From: Pseudogymnoascus verrucosus
Lineage: Eukaryota
Direction: 5' to 3' (one strand)
NCBI GenBank assembly: GCA_001662655.1
Contig: KV460233.1
Length of the DNA stretch: 64,000 nt
Shown: piece by piece, positions 33 to 10,242 of the stretch
Position numbering within the stretch: position 1 is the stretch's first letter
Layout: every line of letters begins with the position of its first letter
Program-made: the position numbers and the translations under genes
The notes under the pieces: model-generated
What the model was told of the DNA's origin: nothing
The model's input: only the letters and a program-made list of their open reading frames with translations
Database searches by the model: none

Positions 33-3000
33 CTAATTAAACCCCAAACCGCTCCGTCTCCTCCTACTCCTACTCCCACCCCCACCCTCATCATCCTCCA
101 TATCCTTCTCCTTCCCCTTCCCCTTCTGCTCCCCCCTCCCCTTTTCCGTCGTCCAATTCCGCATACTAAACACCCTCTTCAACCTCGATATCTTCTTCTC
201 ATCCATCGGGCCCTCGTCTTCCGAATCCTCTTCCGCTTCCGAGACCGCAGGAGGGCTGGTAGCAGGCGCGTCTTCGTCGTCTAGGGTTCGGGAGAAGGGT
301 GATGCGAGTTTTAGTCCTGCGGGTGGCAGATCCCAGGTCTCGATTTCGTCGAGGGTAATGGAGGCGTCGATGGGTATTTGAGGTCCTAGTCCTGGGTAGG
401 GGGGGTGGCTGGGAACCTCGTCATCGTCGTGGTCTGGGGTCGCTTCTGGGTCCCAGAGCGGCACAGGAGATGGTGGGTCTGGTGTATCAAATGGGCTGGG
501 TCCAGGAGCAACGTCGTGCTCCGTTCTGTGCCTAGGAGCGTCGGTCCCGCTAATCGGTCTCTTAGCGGCGGCGCGTCGTGCGGCTGCCAGCCTGTCTCCT
601 ATCCTTGGCTCGGGACGGGGAAGCGTCGGACGGGTGGTGGGATTCGTGGTTTGGGGAGGGGTGTCGATGGTGCTGTCAGAGATGGGGTTCCATTCGTAGT
701 TGCGAGGCGTGCTCTCCTGAGTGACGCGGATCTTTCTGGGGCGGGAGACGTGGGAGCTGAGGCGCTCAGACATGCTGCGGACTAACCCCTTTGTTTCGCG
801 GGATTCTCCTGATCGAGGTTCGCTGGCATCGAACAGTCGGGAGTTGTGGTTTATGACAGTAACATCGCGGTCGGTGGGCTTCTCTACTTCGTTCTGGTGC
901 TTGGTCTCTTGAACTAAGGAGTGCATTGCATCGAGAAAACTAAGGGTCTCTGGGCGTATCGACTGATCTGGAGATCCGTCGTCCTTGTCCTCATCGTCTC
1001 GGTCCGATGGCGTGGAAGACGTACCAAACTCAATGGTAGACACATCTGAACGATCGTTGTCGGGGTCAAGGGGTGAGCGGGATGGCACAGGAGGTGAGCT
1101 GGGTGCGGGACCGACGTCGTGCATTGTAGTGTGGTCATGAGGGGACGTCTGGCTCTCCAGTTGTTTAGCGGCGCGTGCGGCATCCCACTGTTGATTTTCA
1201 GCGACTACGGCTTCTAGCTTTGCTTTGGCACGGGCAAGCGCCCGACGGGCGGCGGTATTCTTAGCTTTAAGGAGGGTGTCATCAATAGGGGAGTTCTGGT
1301 TCTCCAGTTGGTTAACCAACGCGGCATCCCGCAATCGACTTTCAGCTATTGCGACGTCTAGCTTTGCACTGGCACGGGCAAGCGATCGACGGTTGAGGGC
1401 ATCATCAGCTTCAAGGCGAGCTTCAACATCGGCGTCGTCCATGGGCTTCCTCCCTTCGTCGCGGTGAGTCGTCTCGAGGGCATCGTAGTTCAGGCCTGAG
1501 CCTATAAACTCTGGCCGCTGGGGAGAAGCCAGATACTCGACCAATCCTGTATCGATGTCTAATGAGTCGGCATCCGAATCATCGTCTGAGGTCATGGACT
1601 TGGCTGATGGCGGACGGGGAGATTCTGCTTCGTGCTCAGGTGCAAATCTGACCGAAGCTTTCGCTTCGCCATGGTTCGTTGTCCGGTGAGTGGTGGGATC
1701 CGTAGTTGGGGGAGGCACCTCGAATCCGCTGTCGTCGACGGGCTTCTTCCCGTCGTTTGGGTTCTGTGCCTCCTCTCCCTTAGATTCTGCCTCCAAATCC
1801 CTCGCCACAGTCGCCTTTCTATCTTGCATTTTTGACCAGGCCTCATATGTCTTTCGTCGTGCCTCAGCCCCATCATCGTCGACGCGCTTCTTCACGTCGT
1901 CGTGAGAGGTATGGCCCATGTTTTGGGGAACGGTAGACGGGTCTAACACGACATTGTTCCGGTGCGAGGGTGTGATCGACGAGGCCGAGGGACCTGGAGC
2001 ATCGTCATAGGTGGGCTTTTCCTCATCGATTGAGTTATCCCGCGGCTTAAAGGGCATCCCCGCTTCGTAGAATAGCTCCCCCCCCAACTCTCTAACAGCC
2101 CCCTCCTTAATCGCCCACTCCAACAGCCCGCCTCCTTCCTCGGTCCATCCTCCCTCCTCCTCCCCCTTAGCTACCGCATCCCAATGCTTCGCCACATGTT
2201 CCATCCTCTCATCCCACGCCACGCTCCCCATCCAATTCCATTCCTCTATACACCCCGGCGCCGGACAGCGTATCTCCTGAATAAGGCTCCTGCCCGGCTG
2301 TTCCCCCCTCTTCGCCAGCGCCGCTACATGATCACCCGGGACCTCGTGCACCCACTTCAGATGTCCCTCGAGGAGGTCATCCGTGTCAAATAGGGGCCTA
2401 GGGCACGGTTTGAGAGGGCATTTCCAGTAGACGAAGCCCATGTGATTGTTAGCGACATGGCGCTTCCAATAGTCCTTTAAAGTGAACACTGAGGAACAAC
2501 CGGCGAAGGCAAAGGTGCATGGGAATGTGGTTGTAGTGATAGGTGCGGTGGAGGTAGTGCGGGAAGAATGAGGGTTGAAATAGGCAGAGGATGAAAGGGG
2601 TGGGCGAGCAGAGTAATTATTTCTTGGTAATCTTTTGTTATCGATTTTCGCGGATTGGTGGGAAGCGTTGGTGTTGCGCTCCGTGGCGGGCGAGGTGTCC
2701 ATACTGCTTCGGGGAATCGTATGCGGGTTTAGAACAACATCGTCGTCAAAGACAGACGAAGTGGCGGATGATGGTCGGAGGGGGTCTCCAGGTACGTCCT
2801 CAGTGCCAGGCTCATCCTCGTCCCGTGGTTCCCTCATGGTTATGTTGTCGGCCTTGTACAGCCCGATGTCCGGCACTCTCCAACCGCGCTCGTCGTCAGC
2901 TTCATCCTTCTTACGGTCCTCCGTTGAGGAGCCAGCGATGGTGTGAGGCTCAGGGTTAGGTAACGGTGTTCCCCCCATCTCTTTAATTGCGTCTGTAATG

Positions 3001-6000
3001 TTCGCTGGTTGCTCTTTGGCTATAAACCCAACATGCATATTAGTTGATATAAATCGAACATCCCTTATAACCCCCTGTACAAACTCTTCTGCTGGTAGTC
3101 TATTTTTAAATCGCGGTACTACCATATTTCTAGGCCGGGAAAGCTTTCCGTCTTCATCTATAGTAGGTTCTTCCTCTTTAAGGATTTTGTCGACCTTTCG
3201 GGCAATTTCTAAGCATGATATAAGTCTCTGCTTTAAGGCTTTTAGGGTAGCGTCGTCTAGTTCATGTTCCTTGACTTCAGATGTCTTAAGGAAGCCGAGA
3301 ACTGATTCCAAACGTTTAGCTTCCTCGAGGAATGCTTCGGGTGGGTCAATGAAACTGTGGAGGGCGTCCCATTTTTGTTGTATTCCGTCAGCTACAACTT
3401 TCAGAAGTTCGATGAAAGCGAGCGTCTGCTCCAAATTAATTTCATGTCTAGTCGGTATACGCGGCTGCTCTAGCATCGGCGCGCCTTTGCCCTCGCGCCT
3501 CTCGCGCACGTCGCCACCCTCTTCCATTATATCTGCTCGTGAAGCTAAGAGGGCAGCCGAGCTTCCAACTTCAACCTCATCTTCGTGCAAGAAGTTCATG
3601 ATGGATGACCAGGACTGGTCGTCCGTCAGGAGCTTCTTCTCTGCCCTGGCTAGCCGACTCATCAGCTCTGGCCTATCCTTATCATACCCATGATCCTTCA
3701 TAGTACTGCTCAGCAGCCTCAGAAACAGCGCCACATGTGGATATAGCAGATTCTTCCACGAGTCATCCCCTTGCAGCTTCCCCTTCTGTAGTGACTTAAC
3801 CGCATTCGAGTAAAATATCAACACCAAGTCCTCCACACGCCTGTCCTTCTCCATGCGCCTCCTAAACGCCGCCTCTGTGAACGCCGTATACGCTTCCGCA
3901 AAGCTCCTCTTCACTGCCGGATCACTATACCCCGGCAACCGCTCCTTCATCGTAAGCACGCCCGTCATCCGCTTCTCCAGCGCCCCCATAAAGCCATGCG
4001 GCAGCAGCTGGGCACTTTTTAACGACCCGACCCTAGGCGAGAAGCCACCCCTTTCCTCAAAAGGCTCACTTGCCGGGGTTATCGCCTCGGGGCTAAGAAT
4101 CAGGGGATCTATCTTCGTTCCGCGCGCGTCGCCGGGAATTTTCTCCTTTTGGAGGTCATGACTCTCCTGTTGAGTCTGTCGCAGCTGTGCTAGCTTGCGT
4201 TTGTAAGAGCGCTCAAACTCCGAGTTATTGCCCTCATCATCTCCATCAGACACATCCTCCTCAGGCTCTGGCGATGGTGGCGGTATGCGTTTGATTCTCC
4301 TCTCGTCGCGTGCATCGTCTTCAACTCCTCGTGCAGCTTAGTAGTGTTAGTGAATTTCTACAAAGGCTGACAAACAAGGGATAATGAACTCACCGCGAAT
4401 CTTCGCTGTTGCATCAGCATATGCCTGTATCTCCTCTTTACTCAATACTCTCAGCACAATCACGAAGTCATCTCTAGCCTCGTATCTCTCCCTACCATCG
4501 TCTAGCGCTTCGGGATTCACAAGGAGACGGTTTATCTTTGTCCAGCGTGCATCTGGCGGGGGTGCTCCTTCGGCACGCGATGGACGAACATACATCCCGT
4601 CATTTAGCTCGTCTCTAAGAAACGCGACACCCTCACGGGTGGGGCTTGGGTCCTCAGGGAACTTGTTGCGGCCGGTCTTGAGAATACCCTTGATGGGGCG
4701 TTCATCAATTATGACTGGGCCATTAATCGGTGTATAGCGTGTAGTATCGGCGGAGTCACGTTGACTAGCAATTAATTTAGACAGCTCTGATGTTTCATGT
4801 CCCACTTTGGAACCATCTTCTAGGCCTATGTCCTGTATATTGTTGGTATCCTGAGAGTTCTTGGGCGATTCTGGTCTCTGTTCCTGCTCGTCATCGCTAG
4901 ATAATCCGCTGCTGGATCTCGCGTTGTCAGCAGTGAGCGTGTGAGATTCTATAGATAGAGGGGAGATCAGTTCGTCTTGGTCGCGTCCGTTTTTGCGCAG
5001 GCGGCCTCTCGCATGGAGCTCAAGTGTATGATTTATTTCCTCTTCAACGCTCTGGCCGGAAGATACTAGCCGCAATTTATCCTCTCGGTACTGTTTTTTG
5101 CTACCCCAGCCTAATGTTTTTTGACTAACCAGGCCTAATCGAGTACTTTTCTTATATCTGTCTAAGAAAGTCGAGGCGTCTTCGAATAGCCGCTGGCATC
5201 TCGTATCAATTTGCTCAATAAATAGAACGATAGAGGGATCCAGGACGCCCTCTCGTAGCATAGCGATGAGTCTCGTAATAGATACGCATATGCCTGGGAA
5301 TATCCGCTTTAGTATAACTAGTGCGTTTGACTTGACCTTGCCTTCGGTAGCTATATCCTGCAATCGTTGTTGGATCGGCTGGGCTTTAGTTAACAACGAA
5401 GTTAGAGTAGCGATTAGAAAAGGGGCACTATCTCGTGTCGGCGATACGCCATCCTCAGCCGGTTTAGATGTTTCAAATTTATTGAGATCCATCGTCGAAA
5501 GAATAGAACTTGTTCTGTTAACTATACTGTCTGGGCTGCTATCTCGTATCGGAGAAGTAGCCTCTTCAGCTGAATCGGATGTTCGGGATCTGTCAAGGTC
5601 CATCGTCGAGAGCCTAGGACCTGTCCTGTTGACCACGCTGTCTGGACTACTATCTCGTGAGGGAGAGAGTTCTCCATCTGCTTGGTTTCGTTCGCGTCCA
5701 TCTTCTAGGCCTTGGTTGGAAAAACCAGCATCCATACCAAGCCTAGGGTGGGAGGAATCCAATGCAAAGTCAACTGCATATTCCTGAAGAATGCTGTCCA
5801 ATCTTTCCATTTGGAATATAAGCTCCGATGCACACTCTTGGAAGTCGTCTCCGTCGTCTGAGGCCACGAATTCCTTTAATTCTGTCAAAAGCCTTGGAAT
5901 AGTTTTAAAAACTGCTTTAAATTGGAGATCGACGTTGAGCTTATCCAATATCTCAGTCGGTAAGTTCACAATGCTTATCATCTGACGGTGTAATTTGTCG

Positions 6001-7819
6001 ACACCAGGAAAATATGCGTCACTGAAAACTGTCGACGAAATTCCTTGTGTCATCTTGACAAGCGTTTCAATTTCAGCTTTCTTGTCCTCGCTAGCAAATG
6101 CGTAAGATATGTCTGAAACTTCTGACTGGTCAGACCTGGCAATTGCGTGGTCAGAGATATTGGAGTTCTCAGGAGATTCTTCGTTTTCGTTGCCTTCAAC
6201 ATCTCTAGGCAATGCAAATGCCGCAAACCGCTCTAGATGATTTGCCAGGTGATTTTCCAGGCCATATGACGAACCGGCGTCCACGAAACAGATTGGGCAT
6301 ATTGTCCTGGAGTCAGGCCGAACAGTCTCGCAGATGGCGAGCAAATCGTCTAGGCCCATTCGCTGTAGAGACTCATGGTTTTCAGCCAATAGATGCCGCT
6401 TTAAATCATCTTGCGTTAAGAAGTGTGTCGAAGCATGCTCCGGACATTGCCAAGCTTTTTGGTGGGTGCGTTCATGGTTCAGCCATTCCTGTTTGGTTGC
6501 AAAGAGCTCATCCGGCTGTTGACAATGTTTATGAGTGCACATATAGGGCCTTAGATCCCGTAGCAAGTGTGTCCTAACTCTGTCAGTGCGGCTCTAAACC
6601 TAGAAACTATATTAACTATACATACCTCCAAGCACGTGGCATCTGATAATGCGGAGGACATATCATTAAGCAATAGGGGCATTCGAAATCTTTGCCTTTC
6701 TTGATGTCTTTTGGCAACTTAGGAAATTCAATCCTGCTGCCATCCAGACCACGGGCAGTTGTAGCATATGAGGTAACAGACTGGTTACCATCAGGCACAT
6801 TGGCCGGAGTAATGAAGAGGGTTGCAGTAGTTTCGGTGAGTGTGGTTTTAGGCCTAGAAGATTCCGTTTGAGCTTTGCCAATGACTGGCAACGAAGCACG
6901 CGGGCCGGCAACGGATTCCCTCATTTCATCTCCCTTAAGATGCACAGTTGGTGCGGGCTTAGGGATTTTCAAAATCTCCTTCTCAGCATGGAAACCAAGC
7001 TTTTTCCTATGATGCTTCCAATAAAGGAACTGTTGCCTTCTACGGGTTATACCCTGGGCAAGCCTTTTGATCATAGCCAGATCGCCATCGTCAAGAGTTG
7101 GACAGTTCGCATACTGATCCTGCGCATTTCGACGTAGCTGTGAAAACAGATCTTTCGTGAAGGCCAAGTCCACTGGAGCAAATTGTTGCACAACGTCAAC
7201 TCCAGTCTCTTTGTCGATCAGCTTATAAGACAGAGCTTTCAATGATCTAGAGTGCGATGCCGGCGCTCGTATTGAACGAGACAGGCGATAAAGGTTGTCA
7301 TTAATATTAGATAACGCAGACACTCGTCGACGCAGCTCGCTAGGGGCTAATTTCTCATCATCGCTGTCCGAGGAGCTGTCAGAGCTCGACTCGCTATCGC
7401 TAGACAACGAGGACGTGTCCGAGTCGTCCACGTGGCCCGCACGTGAAGATATTTGCGCTTCATATGGAAGTCTTGCGCCGGATAAGACTAGGCACACTAT
7501 TTTCAAATTAGAAAAGCTAGCATTCGTTAGGAAGAGGGGACCTACTTTGATGGAGCTCTTGCTGTAATTCATTAAGGAGCTTCAGAGCCCCTTCCAGAAC
7601 CAAAGGCGCATCACGAAGCCTGTAATCAAGCGAGCTGTGCCCTCTCGAAAGAGCGCCAATATTAGCCGCCCATAATCGAAATCTACCAAACTCGTCTTCG
7701 ATATCAGCATCGGGAACTTGCGCCGCAAACTCCGGTTTCGCCGCCTGGAGGTGGCTCCGAAGAGCTCCAAATGCTTCCAGGCATGACGAGGTTGCGACAT
7801 GCGCTTCCGAAGCCGACAT
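33..7819 (-). CDS. Large mosaic C2H2 zinc-finger protein, ~2542 aa; complement join(7546..7819, 6626..7496, 4394..6573, 33..4336)
   Basis: Four ORF-track segments join in frame through three short GT-AG introns (7497..7545, 6574..6625, 4337..4393) with CTAAC/CTGAC-type branch sites; total 7629 nt. N-terminal 'RFRLWAANIGA...SSLDYRLRDAP' domain, zinc-finger cluster 'FECPYC...HLLRDLRPYMCTHKHC...WLNHE...CPICF...HLANHLERFAAFALP', and a second C2H2 module at ~2090-2530. Confidence 0.75.
1130..1395 (-). repeat. Intragenic tandem duplication, 144-bp (48-aa) period, 2 copies
   Basis: ggcacgggcaagcg at 1227 and 1371; peptides RRSLARASAKLDVAIAES..QLENQNSP and RRALARAKAKLEAVVAEN..QLESQTSP. Confidence 0.8.
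5425..5670 (-). repeat. Intragenic tandem repeat, 111-bp (37-aa) period, ~2.2 copies
   Basis: tatctcgt at 5429, 5540 and 5651; peptide SPxRDSSPDSxVNRTxxxLSTMDL repeated. Confidence 0.85.
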
Positions 7820-8148
7820 GATTTCTCCTTGTCGTCAAGGCCGGCCTCCACTACTAGAGAGCTCCATAAACAGATCACAAGTATGGCAACAGAAGTCAGT
7901 TTTCAGCCGCGAGCGACGATGAAGTATTTTGGTAGTTGGAGGGGTTGCGTGGGATCAACAACCCTGTTGGTGCATGGACGCTTAGTTCAGCCGCAGCCTC
8001 ATCTTGGATTGTGACCACGCACGAAAAACCCCACACTTCAACACTCAGTAGTAAACGACAGAATGACTCTTATTGACTCCTGTGTTCTGTCGCTGTTCTT
8101 GTAAGCCATTAGAGGTTGGCAGCGGCATCTAGCAGCCGTGCCAGCACC
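7820..8148. promoter_or_regulatory. Short divergent (probably bidirectional) promoter region
   Basis: 329 bp separate the two outward-facing ATGs at 7819 (-) and 8149 (+). Confidence 0.5.
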
Positions 8149-10242
8149 ATGAGTGGTGTCGAGGTCGCCGGCATAATCCTTGCTGTTCTACCCCTCTTCA
8201 TCTCCGCTCTCGAGAACTACGAGAATGGACTGGACCCCGTGCGGGCATTTTTTGAGTTCGACTCAGAATGGCCAAATCAGATCCGGAAGCTCCGGGACCA
8301 GCATATCAATTATAACCTCACGATGAAGGGTCTGCTCTTGTCCGTCGCTGATGGCGAGGATGTGGATGAGATGATATCTGATCCGGGCGGTGCCTGCTGG
8401 AAAAACATCGGCATGCAGATAAGGCTCGAGGAGAGACTGGATGAAGCGTACCAGGCATATCTTGATGCGATCAAGCATATAGAGGAAATCATGAAGACTA
8501 TTGCGAAAGACCTCAAAATCGACCATGGTGATAGGGTAAGTTGAGCATTTCTCTCGTACGAATGTGGCTGATACAGATTCAAGACGACACGTGCGGACCT
8601 TCAATCGCTATTGATGAAGGCACCGCGAAAAGACAAACATTTTGAATTTGCGCGGCGTGTAAAGTTCGGCATGAAGCTCAAGAAATTTAAGAGGTTGCTT
8701 GACGATTTGGAAAGCGAGATTCGGAAGCTAGACCAATTCAACGACAAGACGGAACGGTTCGAGCCGTACCGGTCTGCTAAGCCAACGTCTATATTCAACC
8801 CGCCGCTCAATGATATTCGACAATATGCAAAAAACCTGTATGGAGTTTTGTGCGTCGGCGCTGGCTGCTCTCAATCTAAGCATCAGGCAAAGCTGCAGTT
8901 GGAGAAGAGATTGTACCCAAAACGTACGAAAGGTTCTTGGAAGCAATCAAAGGAGATCAACCAGAACACTCGGCCGTGCTTCAGGGTTTCTATGTATGCT
9001 TCTCGTTGGCAAGACGTCGAAGTTCAGATACTCGAAGCGGAATCTTCTGCTGACGAACAACGCTCAAATCAGCCCAAGCATGCCTCGCAACCACAAGGTG
9101 GTGGTTTACCCAGACCCAACTCTTCCACTGGGCCTGTGGCATTGTCGGCGGTGACAGGCAACAAAGGATTACAGTCAATTGAGGAGACCCATATCCTAGT
9201 CGAAAAGCAATCCACCATACATGGTATATCTACGAAGATGTTGATTTCTAGCAAAAAAGGAGTCGGGTATTCCATGAGCATGTCGGCTTCTGTTGGCCCT
9301 CTCCTTAACCAAAGTGCTAGCAAGGTCCAAAGCAGTATCATGAATGGCAAGTCGGTCAAGCCAGGCTCGAAGGCTGTCGGATGGGCCATGTCCGAAGCCC
9401 CGAAAATAACTCTCCATGAATTACCAATCCGCAACTCGAAACCGAACAGCCTGTTGGAGGTAATCGACATATGCTCGGCTATACGGAGATGTAAAACGAG
9501 AAAGATCTGTCTTGGGCTCTGTCTTGACCATGGCGGGACACTCCGCAGGGCACTTTCAATCCCACTACCGGAGAAACAAAGTGAAGAAAAGCCAGCCGAG
9601 GAGGTTCCCGAAAATGAAGCAACCAGCCTGAACAAGCTTCTGATGCCTGATCCGGATCATTATGGACATACTTTGTCTCGAAAAGACCGAATGTCTCTAG
9701 CACTGATACTAGCATCATCGTTTGTACAGCTAGAAGCCACACAGTGGATCCAAGAGTCATGGGGGAAAGAAGACATCGTCTTTGACCGGGCTCCAGATGC
9801 ACCCAAAGACGGCTCCGTCGACCTCAGCAAGCCCTACATCCTACATTCCATCGAAAAACGCACAGCAGACAACAAAACCCGACCTATTGAGAAGTCGCGA
9901 AATTACAGCCTCTTAAGTCTTGGCATCCTCTTGCTTGAGTTATCAACCGGACAGTCTTTCGAGCAGCACTTGTCACGTATAAAGGGCAAAAGCGCTGCCA
10001 GCCTAGACCCCCCTGAAGAATCCATTGAGAGGCTCATGAAACTCTTAGAAGTCAAGAAATGGCTCCTAGCCGTTCAGGATGATTTATCCAGCGGATTCCA
10101 TGGGGCAATCTGGCACTGTGTCAAAAGCTACTTCGACGAAGAATCTGGCAAGACTGAGGACGTCTACCGCCAAGGCGTGTTGGATCAAGTTGTCTTGCCG
10201 TTGCAGGAAGATCTACAGAGCTTCTTAGGCGCCAGAACTTAG
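8149..10242 (+). CDS. HeLo-like N-terminal domain protein with C-terminal kinase-C-lobe-like (DUF7580-type) domain, ~681 aa; join(8149..8535, 8584..10242)
   Basis: N-terminus MSGVEVAGIILAVLPLFISALENY is typical of fungal HeLo/HeLo-like proteins. Intron GTAAGT..gctgat..AAG joins in frame. C-terminus 'RMSLALILASSFVQL...W...DIVF...LLSLGILLLEL...AIWHC...VVLPL'. Confidence 0.7.

What the first reader, a model, noticed from the sequence alone, without database searches (positions are those of the whole stretch)
2090..5420. In-frame chain of fragments apparently captured from unrelated host genes (integrated-decoy-like tail)
Seen: behind the first zinc-finger cluster one reading frame strings together several distinct blocks. 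(a) A helical domain at ~5030-5420. (b) ~4394-4700 'IKGILK..KFPEDPSPTREGVA..ARWTKINRLLVNPEAL..ERYEARDDFVIVLRVLSKEEIQAYA', which I recall as the C-terminal domain (DUF8035-type) of a conserved fungal protein. (c) ~3615-4025 'LLPHGFMGALEKRMTGVL..RMEKDRRVEDLVLIFYSNA..HVALFLRLL..RPELMSRL..KLL', which I recall as an N-terminal piece of the conserved fungal C2/Munc13-homology protein. (d) A second helical domain at ~3170-3440. (e) ~2090-2530, a different C2H2 module 'FPCTFAFAGC..WKRHV..WDERMEHVAKH..LLEWA'. Base composition visibly shifts between blocks: 3620-4030 is GC-rich and 3000-3450 is AT-richer. Inference: repeated gene-fragment capture kept in frame over kilobases implies selection, for example as baits for antagonist effectors.
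Basis: partly seen in the sequence, partly recalled or inferred. Interest (0 to 1): 0.72.

Follow-up and report, generated by a model that had tools for sequence, protein, structure and literature searches.

The report
Mosaic fungal gene with captured domain
One giant gene of a soil fungus has a long added tail that holds a recent in-frame copy of one domain of a housekeeping membrane-traffic gene, but most other blocks are native or family-typical domains, not captured pieces.

Summary
The five blocks exist as described and lie in one minus-strand gene of four exons (33..7819). It equals the annotated 2542-aa hypothetical protein VE01_06431 of Pseudogymnoascus verrucosus.

Block c is a true captured fragment. 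It is 87% identical (124 of 143) to residues 93-234 of the same genome's 1370-aa C2/MUN (Git1/Munc13-type) protein, with sharp edges. It is spliced into a truncated second DUF8035 repeat.

Block b (DUF8035) is not captured. It is the native C-terminal domain of a widespread family with an N-domain, a C2H2 cluster and DUF8035. Block d is a SesA domain, a is a four-helix bundle, and e is a fungal C2H2 module; none has a recent donor.

The mosaic is collinear in three other Pseudogymnoascus species and in an independent DNA assembly. There all 5 exon indels are multiples of three.

The same donor domain was captured independently in other fungi (AU p 1e-11). In this gene c evolves at linker speed and without the donor's constraint. 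Fragment capture is shown for one block; the decoy function stays unsupported. No RNA data were available.

The parts
33..7819 (-). Whole gene (= VE01_06431, 2542 aa). Exons 7546-7819, 6626-7496, 4394-6573 and 33-4336; stop TAA at 33-35.
   Evidence: frames and splice signals; 100% identical database protein; tblastn of P0001 on the window.
7497..7545 (-). Intron 1 (49 nt).
   Evidence: GTAGGT...AG restores the frame; a 1-nt deletion at 7500 in a related strain lies inside it.
6574..6625 (-). Intron 2 (52 nt), inside the first zinc-finger motif.
   Evidence: a 1-nt insertion behind 6575 in a related strain lies inside it.
4337..4393 (-). Intron 3 (57 nt, with an in-frame stop), directly behind DUF8035. 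If retained, the protein would end 13 codons later, as an ancestral-type product of about 1127 aa.
   Evidence: GTGAGT, CTAAC, AG; homology to family members runs across the junction, to residues 1111-1139.
6207..6693 (-). First C2H2 cluster (residues 360-505; precomputed PF26082).
   Evidence: precomputed Pfam; query 1-170 matches many representatives at about residues 366-540.
5007..5426 (-). Block a: four-helix bundle (residues 766-905).
   Evidence: pLDDT 83, pTM 0.78, four long helices. (MLKL N-domain Z 10.8, not above helical background). (Atlas lead to PigL_N/SesA clusters).
4398..4700 (-). Block b: DUF8035 (PF26118), the native C-terminal domain of the family.
4041..4136 (-). Truncated second DUF8035 repeat (residues 1176-1207). 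It ends 3 residues before the captured fragment starts.
   Evidence: local score 73 against a shuffle maximum of 47, 0 of 500 shuffles as high. The same holds in P0002, P0003 and P0126.
3603..4031 (-). Block c: captured copy of residues 93-234 of the C2/MUN protein VE01_10457 (PF27826 region).
   Evidence: six helices, pLDDT about 90; GC3 0.71.
3057..3449 (-). Block d: SesA domain (PF17107), AT-rich.
   Evidence: 28.7 bits, cut-off 26.3, E 1.6e-6.. (GC 0.43, TpA/ApT 1.08).
2082..2525 (-). Block e: second C2H2/CCHH module of a fungal type, well conserved (91-98% among orthologs).
   Evidence: (46% to P0129, 29% to a Sclerotinia C2H2 protein).
36..2081 (-). Tail of about 680 aa, mostly low-complexity, with conserved islands and lineage-specific insertions.
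   Evidence: 64-74% identity to the orthologs, in-frame indels. P0124 and P0128 share the C-terminal end.

Best explanation
This is one real, lineage-specific mosaic gene. Residues 1 to about 1140 (exons 1-3 and the start of exon 4) are a complete member of a widespread Pezizomycotina family: an N-terminal helical region, a C2H2 cluster (PF26082), a variable middle and a C-terminal DUF8035. In the ancestor of the sampled Pseudogymnoascus species the C-terminus was lengthened by DNA insertion into a second DUF8035 repeat. The added tail now holds a domain-sized copy of residues 93-234 of the resident Git1/Munc13-type C2/MUN gene, a SesA helical domain, a second C2H2 module and a long disordered tail. 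Shown: the gene model by sequence signals, the donor, the junction, one capture event for this gene, and collinearity in four species. Inferred: since capture, c has drifted under relaxed constraint, at the pace of the linkers. Its frame is kept mainly because a frameshift would destroy the conserved module e downstream. The protein's working parts would then be the conserved N-domain, both zinc-finger modules, bundle a and DUF8035. The protein would act as a large zinc-finger scaffold of the kind that elsewhere carries NACHT, WD40, ankyrin, Macro or kinase modules. If c still has a role, the most likely one is as a spare partner-binding module that mimics the N-terminal localisation region of the Munc13-type protein.
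For: Gene model. Donor: 124 of 143 identical to residues 93-234 of P0007 of the same species, with no other significant stretch. 118 of the 120 listed hits to c are ordinary PF27826 C2/MUN proteins. Junction: a truncated DUF8035 copy ends 3 residues before the donor homology begins. Native status of b: at least 23 representatives combine the N-domain/zinc-finger part with a terminal DUF8035, for example P0138 and P0147, which end 11-25 residues after it. One capture for this gene: the four orthologous copies form a clade (95/91) nested among Pseudogymnoascus donors (97/94). Not an assembly artefact: the same order is seen in P0002, P0003 and P0126. DNA contigs of another strain bridge both ends of c and both introns. 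Coding: 5 of 5 exon indels against that strain are multiples of three (-6, +21, +93, +48, +6), while 2 of 2 intron indels are 1 nt. Relaxed constraint on c: genus donors are 98-100% identical while the copies are 68-87% identical to the donor. Identity among orthologs is c 70-86%, against N, Z1, b and e at 91-99%. Substitutions hit donor-conserved columns as often as variable ones in P0002, P0003 and P0126 (odds ratios 0.88-1.12).
Against: No RNA run was available, so splicing of intron 3 and a single transcript are inferred, not seen. In P0001 itself substitutions tend to avoid donor-conserved columns (5 of 66 against 13 of 74, p 0.13; p 0.048 at the 80% threshold), so some constraint on c is possible. 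The same donor domain, with nearly the same limits, was captured independently elsewhere. In two of those copies the donor-conserved columns are spared (P0121 p 0.005, P0083 p 0.003). That argues that the domain is useful as a module. The c block of P0003 is 70% identical to P0002 while their other domain blocks are 94-100% identical, linker l2 85% and the tail blocks 87-94%. Plain drift does not explain this.
Confidence: 0.6

Rival explanations
1. Integrated-bait reading. The tail carries mimics of host proteins that are targets of antagonists' effectors. Modification or binding of the mimic would be read out by the adjoining SesA or four-helix-bundle modules, as in plant NLRs with integrated domains.
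For: c is a true copy of a host protein domain. The same domain was captured independently at least twice, probably 3-4 times; a single origin is rejected (delta lnL 108, p 1.2e-11). One of these copies sits on the same N-domain/zinc-finger platform (P0280). Relatives of the platform carry NACHT-type P-loops, ankyrin, WD40 and TPR repeats, kinases and Macro domains. Others carry pieces of other host proteins between the zinc fingers and DUF8035: a homeodomain in P0138, a Drf_GBD piece in P0140, GDH2_N in P0224. d is a SesA domain, a family known from the N-termini of fungal NLRs. Putative integrated decoys have been proposed for fungal NLRs (PMC12258605, passages read).
Against: Pfam found no nucleotide-binding domain in this protein. 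Only 1 of the 5 blocks is a capture. In 3 of 4 orthologs c is not kept like its donor, which a faithful mimic should be. The SesA and bundle modules are internal, not N-terminal. The P. destructans gene model is truncated and runs into another frame. No effector or partner is known.
Confidence: 0.13
2. Two products from one locus. Retention of intron 3 gives an ancestral-type protein of about 1127 aa that ends just behind DUF8035. The tail would be made only in the spliced isoform, or from a transcript of its own.
For: Intron 3 lies exactly at the end of the ancestral architecture and holds an in-frame stop 13 codons in. A relative's ORF-type prediction ends in the same way (P0133). Ordinary family members end 11-57 residues after DUF8035.
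Against: Homology to the C-terminal tails of family members continues into exon 4. The stretch between intron 3 and c is conserved in frame and holds the DUF8035 remnant. The first ATG of the exon-4 frame lies inside c.
Confidence: 0.2
3. Assembly or annotation chimera: the blocks belong to different genes that were wrongly joined.
For: All protein models are automatic predictions. No transcript evidence was available.
Against: The same order is seen in four species' assemblies. Contigs of an independent run bridge 1871-3942 and 3916-6850. Exon 4 is one uninterrupted 1434-codon frame.
Confidence: 0.02

Closest known systems
Plant NLRs with integrated domains ('integrated decoys'; PMC4246468, search listing and abstract only), and the putative integrated kinase domains of Sordariales NLRs (PMC12258605, passages read)
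   Same: A domain-sized copy of a host protein is fused in frame into a larger multidomain protein of a fast-changing family, and the copy diverges from a conserved donor.
   Different: There is no NB-ARC or NACHT chassis here and no paired helper. The copy sits in a C-terminal extension of a zinc-finger protein. No effector target is known. The substitution pattern shows no retention of the donor's constraint in 3 of 4 orthologs.
Family with an N-terminal helical region, a PF26082 C2H2 cluster and a C-terminal DUF8035 (PF26118) in Pezizomycotina; uncharacterised, and 0 papers hold 'DUF8035'
   Same: Residues 1 to about 1140 match it end to end, including the terminal domain and the short tail behind it.
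   Different: About 1400 further residues follow (c, d, e and the tail), and a four-helix bundle (a) lies in front of DUF8035.
Fungal UNC-13/Munc13 homologues (S. pombe Git1 and Ync13; PMC6249806, passages read)
   Same: Block c is 87% identical to part of the N-terminal region of the species' own homologue. N-termini of this family bind partners for localisation.
   Different: Only residues 93-234 of 1370 are present. The MUN/MHD and C2 domains are absent.
Gene-fragment capture by transposons (Pack-MULEs, Helitrons), recalled and not read here; and ordinary domain shuffling
   Same: A piece of a host gene is duplicated into a new transcription unit.
   Different: I saw no transposon features around the block. 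The piece coincides with a whole folded domain and is in frame.

Membership tests
Family with N-domain, PF26082 C2H2 cluster and DUF8035 | Homologous N-terminal region and C2H2 cluster at about residues 360-505 | tested here: met
   3538 representatives at E <= 1e-3, with the zinc-finger stretch placed at about residues 366-540; blastp of residues 8-549 at 24-42% to many members; precomputed PF26082.
Family with N-domain, PF26082 C2H2 cluster and DUF8035 | DUF8035 near the C-terminus | tested here: not met
   DUF8035 is present (precomputed PF26118; up to 73% identity to terminal domains). Here it is internal, with about 1430 residues behind it. The core is a member; the whole protein is an extended variant.
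SesA (PF17107) | Score above the Pfam gathering cut-off | tested here: met
   28.7 bits against 26.3 when block d is scanned alone. It scores 24.5-25.9 bits within the full proteins. Precomputed PF17107 on P0002 and P0126.
SesA (PF17107) | N-terminal position on a NACHT or other P-loop NTPase | tested here: not met
   The domain is at residues 1423-1535 of 2542. Pfam found no NTPase domain.
NLR with integrated decoy | Central nucleotide-binding domain (NB-ARC or NACHT) with repeats | tested here: not met
   Searches found none in this protein. Some platform relatives have NACHT/NPHP3_N with ankyrin, WD40 or TPR repeats.
NLR with integrated decoy | Integrated domain derived from a host protein | tested here: met
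   for block c only.
NLR with integrated decoy | The donor protein is a target of an antagonist's effector | not testable with these tools
   No data.
UNC-13/Munc13 (Git1/Ync13) family | MUN (MHD1/MHD2) and C2 domains | tested here: not met
   homology is limited to donor residues 93-234. MUN and C2 lie at 733-1031 of the donor; neither is in P0001.
HeLo/MLKL-type four-helix-bundle executioner domain (block a) | Fold match standing above the helical-bundle background | tested here: inconclusive
   MLKL 4btf_A has Z 10.8, rmsd 2.6 and 100 aligned residues. Generic and designed bundles reach Z 12.4, and the tool warns that Z under about 13 is common for helical bundles. No Pfam hit.

The most novel reading that the evidence does not exclude
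The N-domain/zinc-finger family is a fungal surveillance platform that needs no NLR core. It repeatedly acquires domain-sized copies of host proteins. These include the Munc13-type N-domain at least twice independently, plus homeodomain, formin GBD, GDH2_N, RPA_C and PAH pieces in relatives. They sit beside SesA or MLKL-like helical bundles, so that tampering with a bait (binding, modification or cleavage) would free or activate a membrane-targeting bundle. VE01_06431 would be one such multi-bait sensor, and the discordant, hyper-diverged c block of one ortholog would reflect diversifying or balancing selection.
Probability: 0.1. Interest if true: 0.85.

Novelty: new variant of a known kind. 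Interest (0 to 1): 0.5.

Why it matters
Integrated host-protein domains are a well-studied way for plant immune receptors to gain new recognition. In fungi they have only been proposed, and only for NLRs. This locus gives a clean, datable case in a non-NLR protein: the donor is known, the junction is mapped to within three residues, and there are four orthologs. The same donor domain was also taken up independently in other fungi. This makes testable whether such copies are baits, spare interaction modules or drifting passengers. It also shows that most of an apparent 'chain of captured fragments' can be ordinary family architecture, which matters for reading similar signals elsewhere.

Tried and rejected
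1. No whole genome is held for the window. Donors could therefore only be sought in protein collections, and the donor's DNA, its introns and dN/dS could not be examined.

2. RNA evidence: no RNA holder was listed. The one run listed (X1) proved to be DNA contigs of a related strain.

3. Metagenome scans for orthologous DNA. A protein query of d plus the following linker found nothing. Alignment A1 found 4 loci, of which only L001 is close (91%), and it covers residues 142-683, not the tail. Per-block dN/dS was therefore not computed.

5. An Atlas look-up of the extra block of P0002 failed because the protein is over 2046 aa.

6. Foldseek of the c+d model against the PDB gave no match at E <= 0.001. 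The d part of that model was of low confidence.

7. Blocks a and d are not detectably similar to each other by BLASTP (best E 5.3).

8. The missing second half of the truncated DUF8035 repeat was not found downstream (score 33 against a shuffle mean of 34).

9. Tandem Repeats Finder found no array in the protein-level repeat region.

10. Earlier notes of this scan held nothing on this place, sequence or these words.

11. Literature: 'DUF8035' occurs in 0 papers. The searches for acuF zinc fingers, Pseudogymnoascus gene fusion and SesA/HeLo-like/decoy gave nothing on this family.

12. Extra short pieces of X1 laid on 2174-2525 have loose ends, but they fall on a purine-rich conserved motif. I did not read them as a paralogous copy.

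13. A RIP-type origin of the AT-rich blocks a and d is only hinted at by dinucleotide indices on stretches of about 400 nt.


Full report
**Observation.** On the minus strand four long stop-to-stop frames follow one another: 7517..7834, 6616..7581, 4347..6593 and 33..4337. They join through three short introns with canonical fungal signals:
- 7497..7545;
- 6574..6625, GTATGT...CTGAC...AG;
- 4337..4393, GTGAGT...CTAAC...AG, 57 nt, with an in-frame stop.

The stop codon is TAA at 33-35. The product is identical to a 2542-aa database protein, hypothetical protein VE01_06431 of Pseudogymnoascus verrucosus (P0001, checked by tblastn). The composition shift is real. GC is 0.41-0.43 at 3001-3450 and 0.53-0.58 at 3601-4200. 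Third-position GC is 0.71 in c, 0.68 in e, 0.38 in d and 0.44 in a.

**One gene, not an artefact.** A search among longer proteins gave 3 hits among the 2989 candidates scored. They were P0001 itself and two full-length orthologs of other Pseudogymnoascus species, P0002 (2647 aa) and P0003 (2571 aa). The three are collinear over all blocks. The P. destructans model P0126 (626 aa) holds b, c and d in the same order and then runs into another frame.

The only sequencing run found was DNA of a related strain. Its contigs span 1871-3942 and 3916-6850, so they bridge both edges of c and two introns. Against that strain all 5 indels in predicted exons are multiples of three (-6, +21, +93, +48, +6). 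The 2 indels in predicted introns are single bases, at 6575 and 7500. No RNA run was available, so splicing and a single transcript remain inferred.

**Block b is native.** A full HMMER search with exon 3 gave 3538 representatives at E <= 1e-3, of which the best 150 were listed. They fall into two classes: matches to the zinc-finger cluster at about residues 366-540 of the hit, and matches to DUF8035 at the extreme C-terminus of proteins of about 650-1100 aa, at up to 73% identity. BLASTP of P0001 against everything fetched showed at least 23 proteins that have both parts. Examples are P0138 (967 aa) and P0147 (809 aa), which end 11-25 residues after DUF8035.

Residues 1 to about 1140 are therefore a complete ancestral-type protein. 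The homology to family tails crosses the exon 3/4 junction, to residues 1111-1139, which supports intron 3. Intron 3 sits exactly at the end of this core. If it were retained, the frame would stop 13 codons later.

**Block c is a captured fragment.** A search with residues 95-250 of exon 4 gave 350 proteins at E <= 0.01 among 685 candidates. Of the 120 listed, 118 are ordinary C2/MUN proteins carrying PF27826. The best is the same species' own VE01_10457 (P0007, 1370 aa). Identity is 124 of 143 over donor residues 93-234, and nothing else in the two proteins matches. The donor's MUN and C2 domains lie at 733-1031.

Just upstream of c lies a 32-residue remnant of a second DUF8035 repeat, at residues 1176-1207. 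Its local score is 73 against a shuffle maximum of 47, with 0 of 500 shuffles as high. It breaks off at the point where the first repeat continues, 3 residues before the donor homology starts. The same holds in the three other species. Its second half was not found downstream. The tail was therefore built by insertion into that repeat.

With an alignment dominated by donors, c folds as a self-contained six-helix domain with pLDDT about 90.

**Age and rate of c.** Donors of four Pseudogymnoascus sources are 98-100% identical over 155 residues. The copies are 87% (P0001, P0002), 83% (P0126) and 68% (P0003) identical to the donor. In a careful tree of 43 rows the four copies form one clade (95/91), nested among Pseudogymnoascus donors (97/94 and 100/99). 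So there was one capture for this gene, after the genus split from the other Leotiomycetes sampled and before these species diverged.

By block, identity among the three full orthologs is 91-99% for N, the first zinc fingers, b and e. It is 89-99% for a, 70-86% for c and 73-95% for d. For the three linkers it is 67-80% against P0001, and 85-94% between P0002 and P0003.

Substitutions in the copies fall on columns conserved in 95% or more of the donors as often as on variable columns in three of the orthologs:
- P0002: 8 of 66 against 10 of 74;
- P0003: 21 of 65 against 22 of 69;
- P0126: 13 of 65 against 13 of 71.

In P0001 they fall somewhat less often on conserved columns (5 of 66 against 13 of 74, p 0.13). 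The donor's constraint is thus largely gone. The open frame of c can be explained by selection on the conserved block e behind it.

One oddity remains. P0002 and P0003 are 94-100% identical in the other domain blocks, 85-86% in the two linkers beside c and 87-94% in the tail blocks, but only 70% in c. The c tree also groups P0003 with P. destructans.

**Blocks a, d and e.**
- Block d scores 28.7 bits for SesA (cut-off 26.3) when scanned alone. It scores 24.5-25.9 bits inside the full proteins.
- Block a is predicted with confidence (pLDDT 83, pTM 0.78) as four long helices. The MLKL N-domain (Z 10.8) and plant CC domains (Z 8.9-9.3) are among its matches, but generic bundles score higher (Z 12.4). 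The fold class is therefore only consistent with a HeLo/MLKL-type bundle. The Atlas gave a weak lead to PigL_N/SesA clusters.
- Blocks a and d are not similar to each other by BLASTP.
- A search with residues 1354-1900 (d and e with the linkers beside them, and the first 40 residues of the tail) among shorter proteins gave only 9 hits of 7999 candidates scored. These are orthologous pieces, two other Pseudogymnoascus mosaics and a Sclerotinia C2H2 protein at 29%.

No recent housekeeping donor exists for d or e within the reach of that search.

**Variation between relatives.** P0002 and P0003 carry a further block of about 235 residues after residue 765, which the window lacks. A 42% identical copy of that block occurs in another Pseudogymnoascus mosaic, P0121. 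P0121 also holds a Munc13-type fragment, a Myb/SANT domain and an RRM. P0134 (1702 aa, 79% identical in the N-part) has b, e and the tail but lacks a, c and d.

**Recurrent capture.**
- P0280 (839 aa) has the same N-domain/zinc-finger platform at 29% identity and ends in a Munc13-type fragment.
- P0083 (1463 aa; a prediction from an 8.8-kb contig that I did not verify) strings AhpC, bromodomain, RWD, AMPK-CBM, the Munc13-type fragment (donor residues 79-237) and ARID.

In the careful tree these two copies lie with non-Pseudogymnoascus donors, across a 100/94 branch. None of 200 bootstrap trees holds all seven copies together. The AU test rejects one clade (delta lnL 108.2, p 1.2e-11). The group was defined by architecture, but I had seen a quick tree first. 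In P0121 and P0083 the donor-conserved columns are spared (p 0.005 and 0.003).

**The platform.** Of the 149 representatives other than P0001 I scanned 102 against Pfam. These were 27 long ones chosen by me (which also scanned two proteins) and 75 more in list order. The other 47 were not scanned. In one search, 20 of 75 had a hit at E <= 1e-5.

Partners of the zinc-finger platform include Macro (the commonest), an EVH1-like PH domain, RPA_C, PAH, WD40, ankyrin, TPR, NACHT/NPHP3_N, kinases, SH3, BAG and NmrA. Three relatives also hold a homeodomain (P0138), a formin GBD piece (P0140) and GDH2_N (P0224) behind the zinc fingers; in P0138 and P0140 the piece lies between them and a terminal DUF8035. 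The local Pfam copy lacks PF26082, PF26118 and PF27826. Those assignments come from the precomputed columns, and the name 'DUF8035' from a source's protein name.

**Reading.** The finding is a real mosaic gene. Capture of a fragment of an unrelated host gene is shown for c only. Block b is native, and a, d and e are domain modules without identified donors.

The decoy idea is not excluded. Recurrent capture and the company the platform keeps speak for it. For this gene, however, the evidence points to a copy that has lost its donor's constraint.

Putative integrated decoys in fungal NLRs have been discussed (PMC12258605, passages read). N-termini of Munc13-family proteins bind partners for localisation (PMC6249806, passages read). 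I found nothing in print on DUF8035 or on this family.

**Surroundings.** The window starts 32 bases beyond the stop codon, so the downstream side is unseen. Upstream lies a divergent gene with DUF7580, followed by ATG22, MED14, an HSP20 gene and a class I tRNA synthetase. This is an ordinary neighbourhood.

Noticed in passing
window 8113-10242 (+): A divergently transcribed neighbour has an N-terminal helical exon and a DUF7580 domain (E 4.8e-27). Its start lies about 300 bases from the start of the mosaic gene, so the two may share a promoter region.
   Followed up: partly
P0126 (P. destructans VC83_07940), corresponding to window about 2480-4700: The ortholog model in the bat pathogen has only 626 aa. 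It starts inside DUF8035, holds b, c and d, and then continues in a frame that matches an alternative frame of the window (2477..2728). The gene looks broken or mis-modelled there.
   Followed up: partly
P0002 and P0003, alignment A1 columns 766-999; would lie at window about 5426: A block of about 235 residues is present in two orthologs and absent from the window. It is shared at 42% with another Pseudogymnoascus mosaic (P0121). Its origin is unknown.
   Followed up: partly
window 3603-4031 (block c) in the orthologs: P0003 is 70% identical to P0002 in c, against 94-100% in the other domain blocks, 85-86% in the linkers beside c and 87-94% in the tail. Its c groups with the P. destructans copy (100/99). 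Local hypermutation, gene conversion or an old polymorphism could explain this; it remains unexplained.
   Followed up: partly
window 3057-3449 and 5004-5423: The two helical blocks d and a are AT-rich (GC 0.43-0.45). TpA/ApT is 1.08-1.15 and (CpA+TpG)/(ApC+GpT) is 0.92-0.97, against 0.71 and 1.21 for the whole window. This resembles repeat-induced point mutation, but the stretches are short.
   Followed up: no
window about 1270-1410 and 1760-2000 (tail): P. verrucosus has two tail segments that both orthologs lack, at alignment A1 columns 2140-2219 and 2338-2385. The second looks like a duplication of a coiled-coil stretch.
   Followed up: no
window about 5520-5750: Two protein-level repeats of about 37 residues (SP.RDSSPDS.VNRT...STMDL) lie in front of block a. 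A relative (P0133) has three. Tandem Repeats Finder does not see them at the DNA level.
   Followed up: partly
P0083 (unnamed ENA prediction, 1463 aa): One predicted protein strings partial AhpC/TSA, bromodomain, RWD, AMPK-CBM, a Munc13-type N-domain fragment and ARID. It is a far more extreme 'chain of host-gene pieces' than the window's gene. I could not check the gene model.
   Followed up: partly
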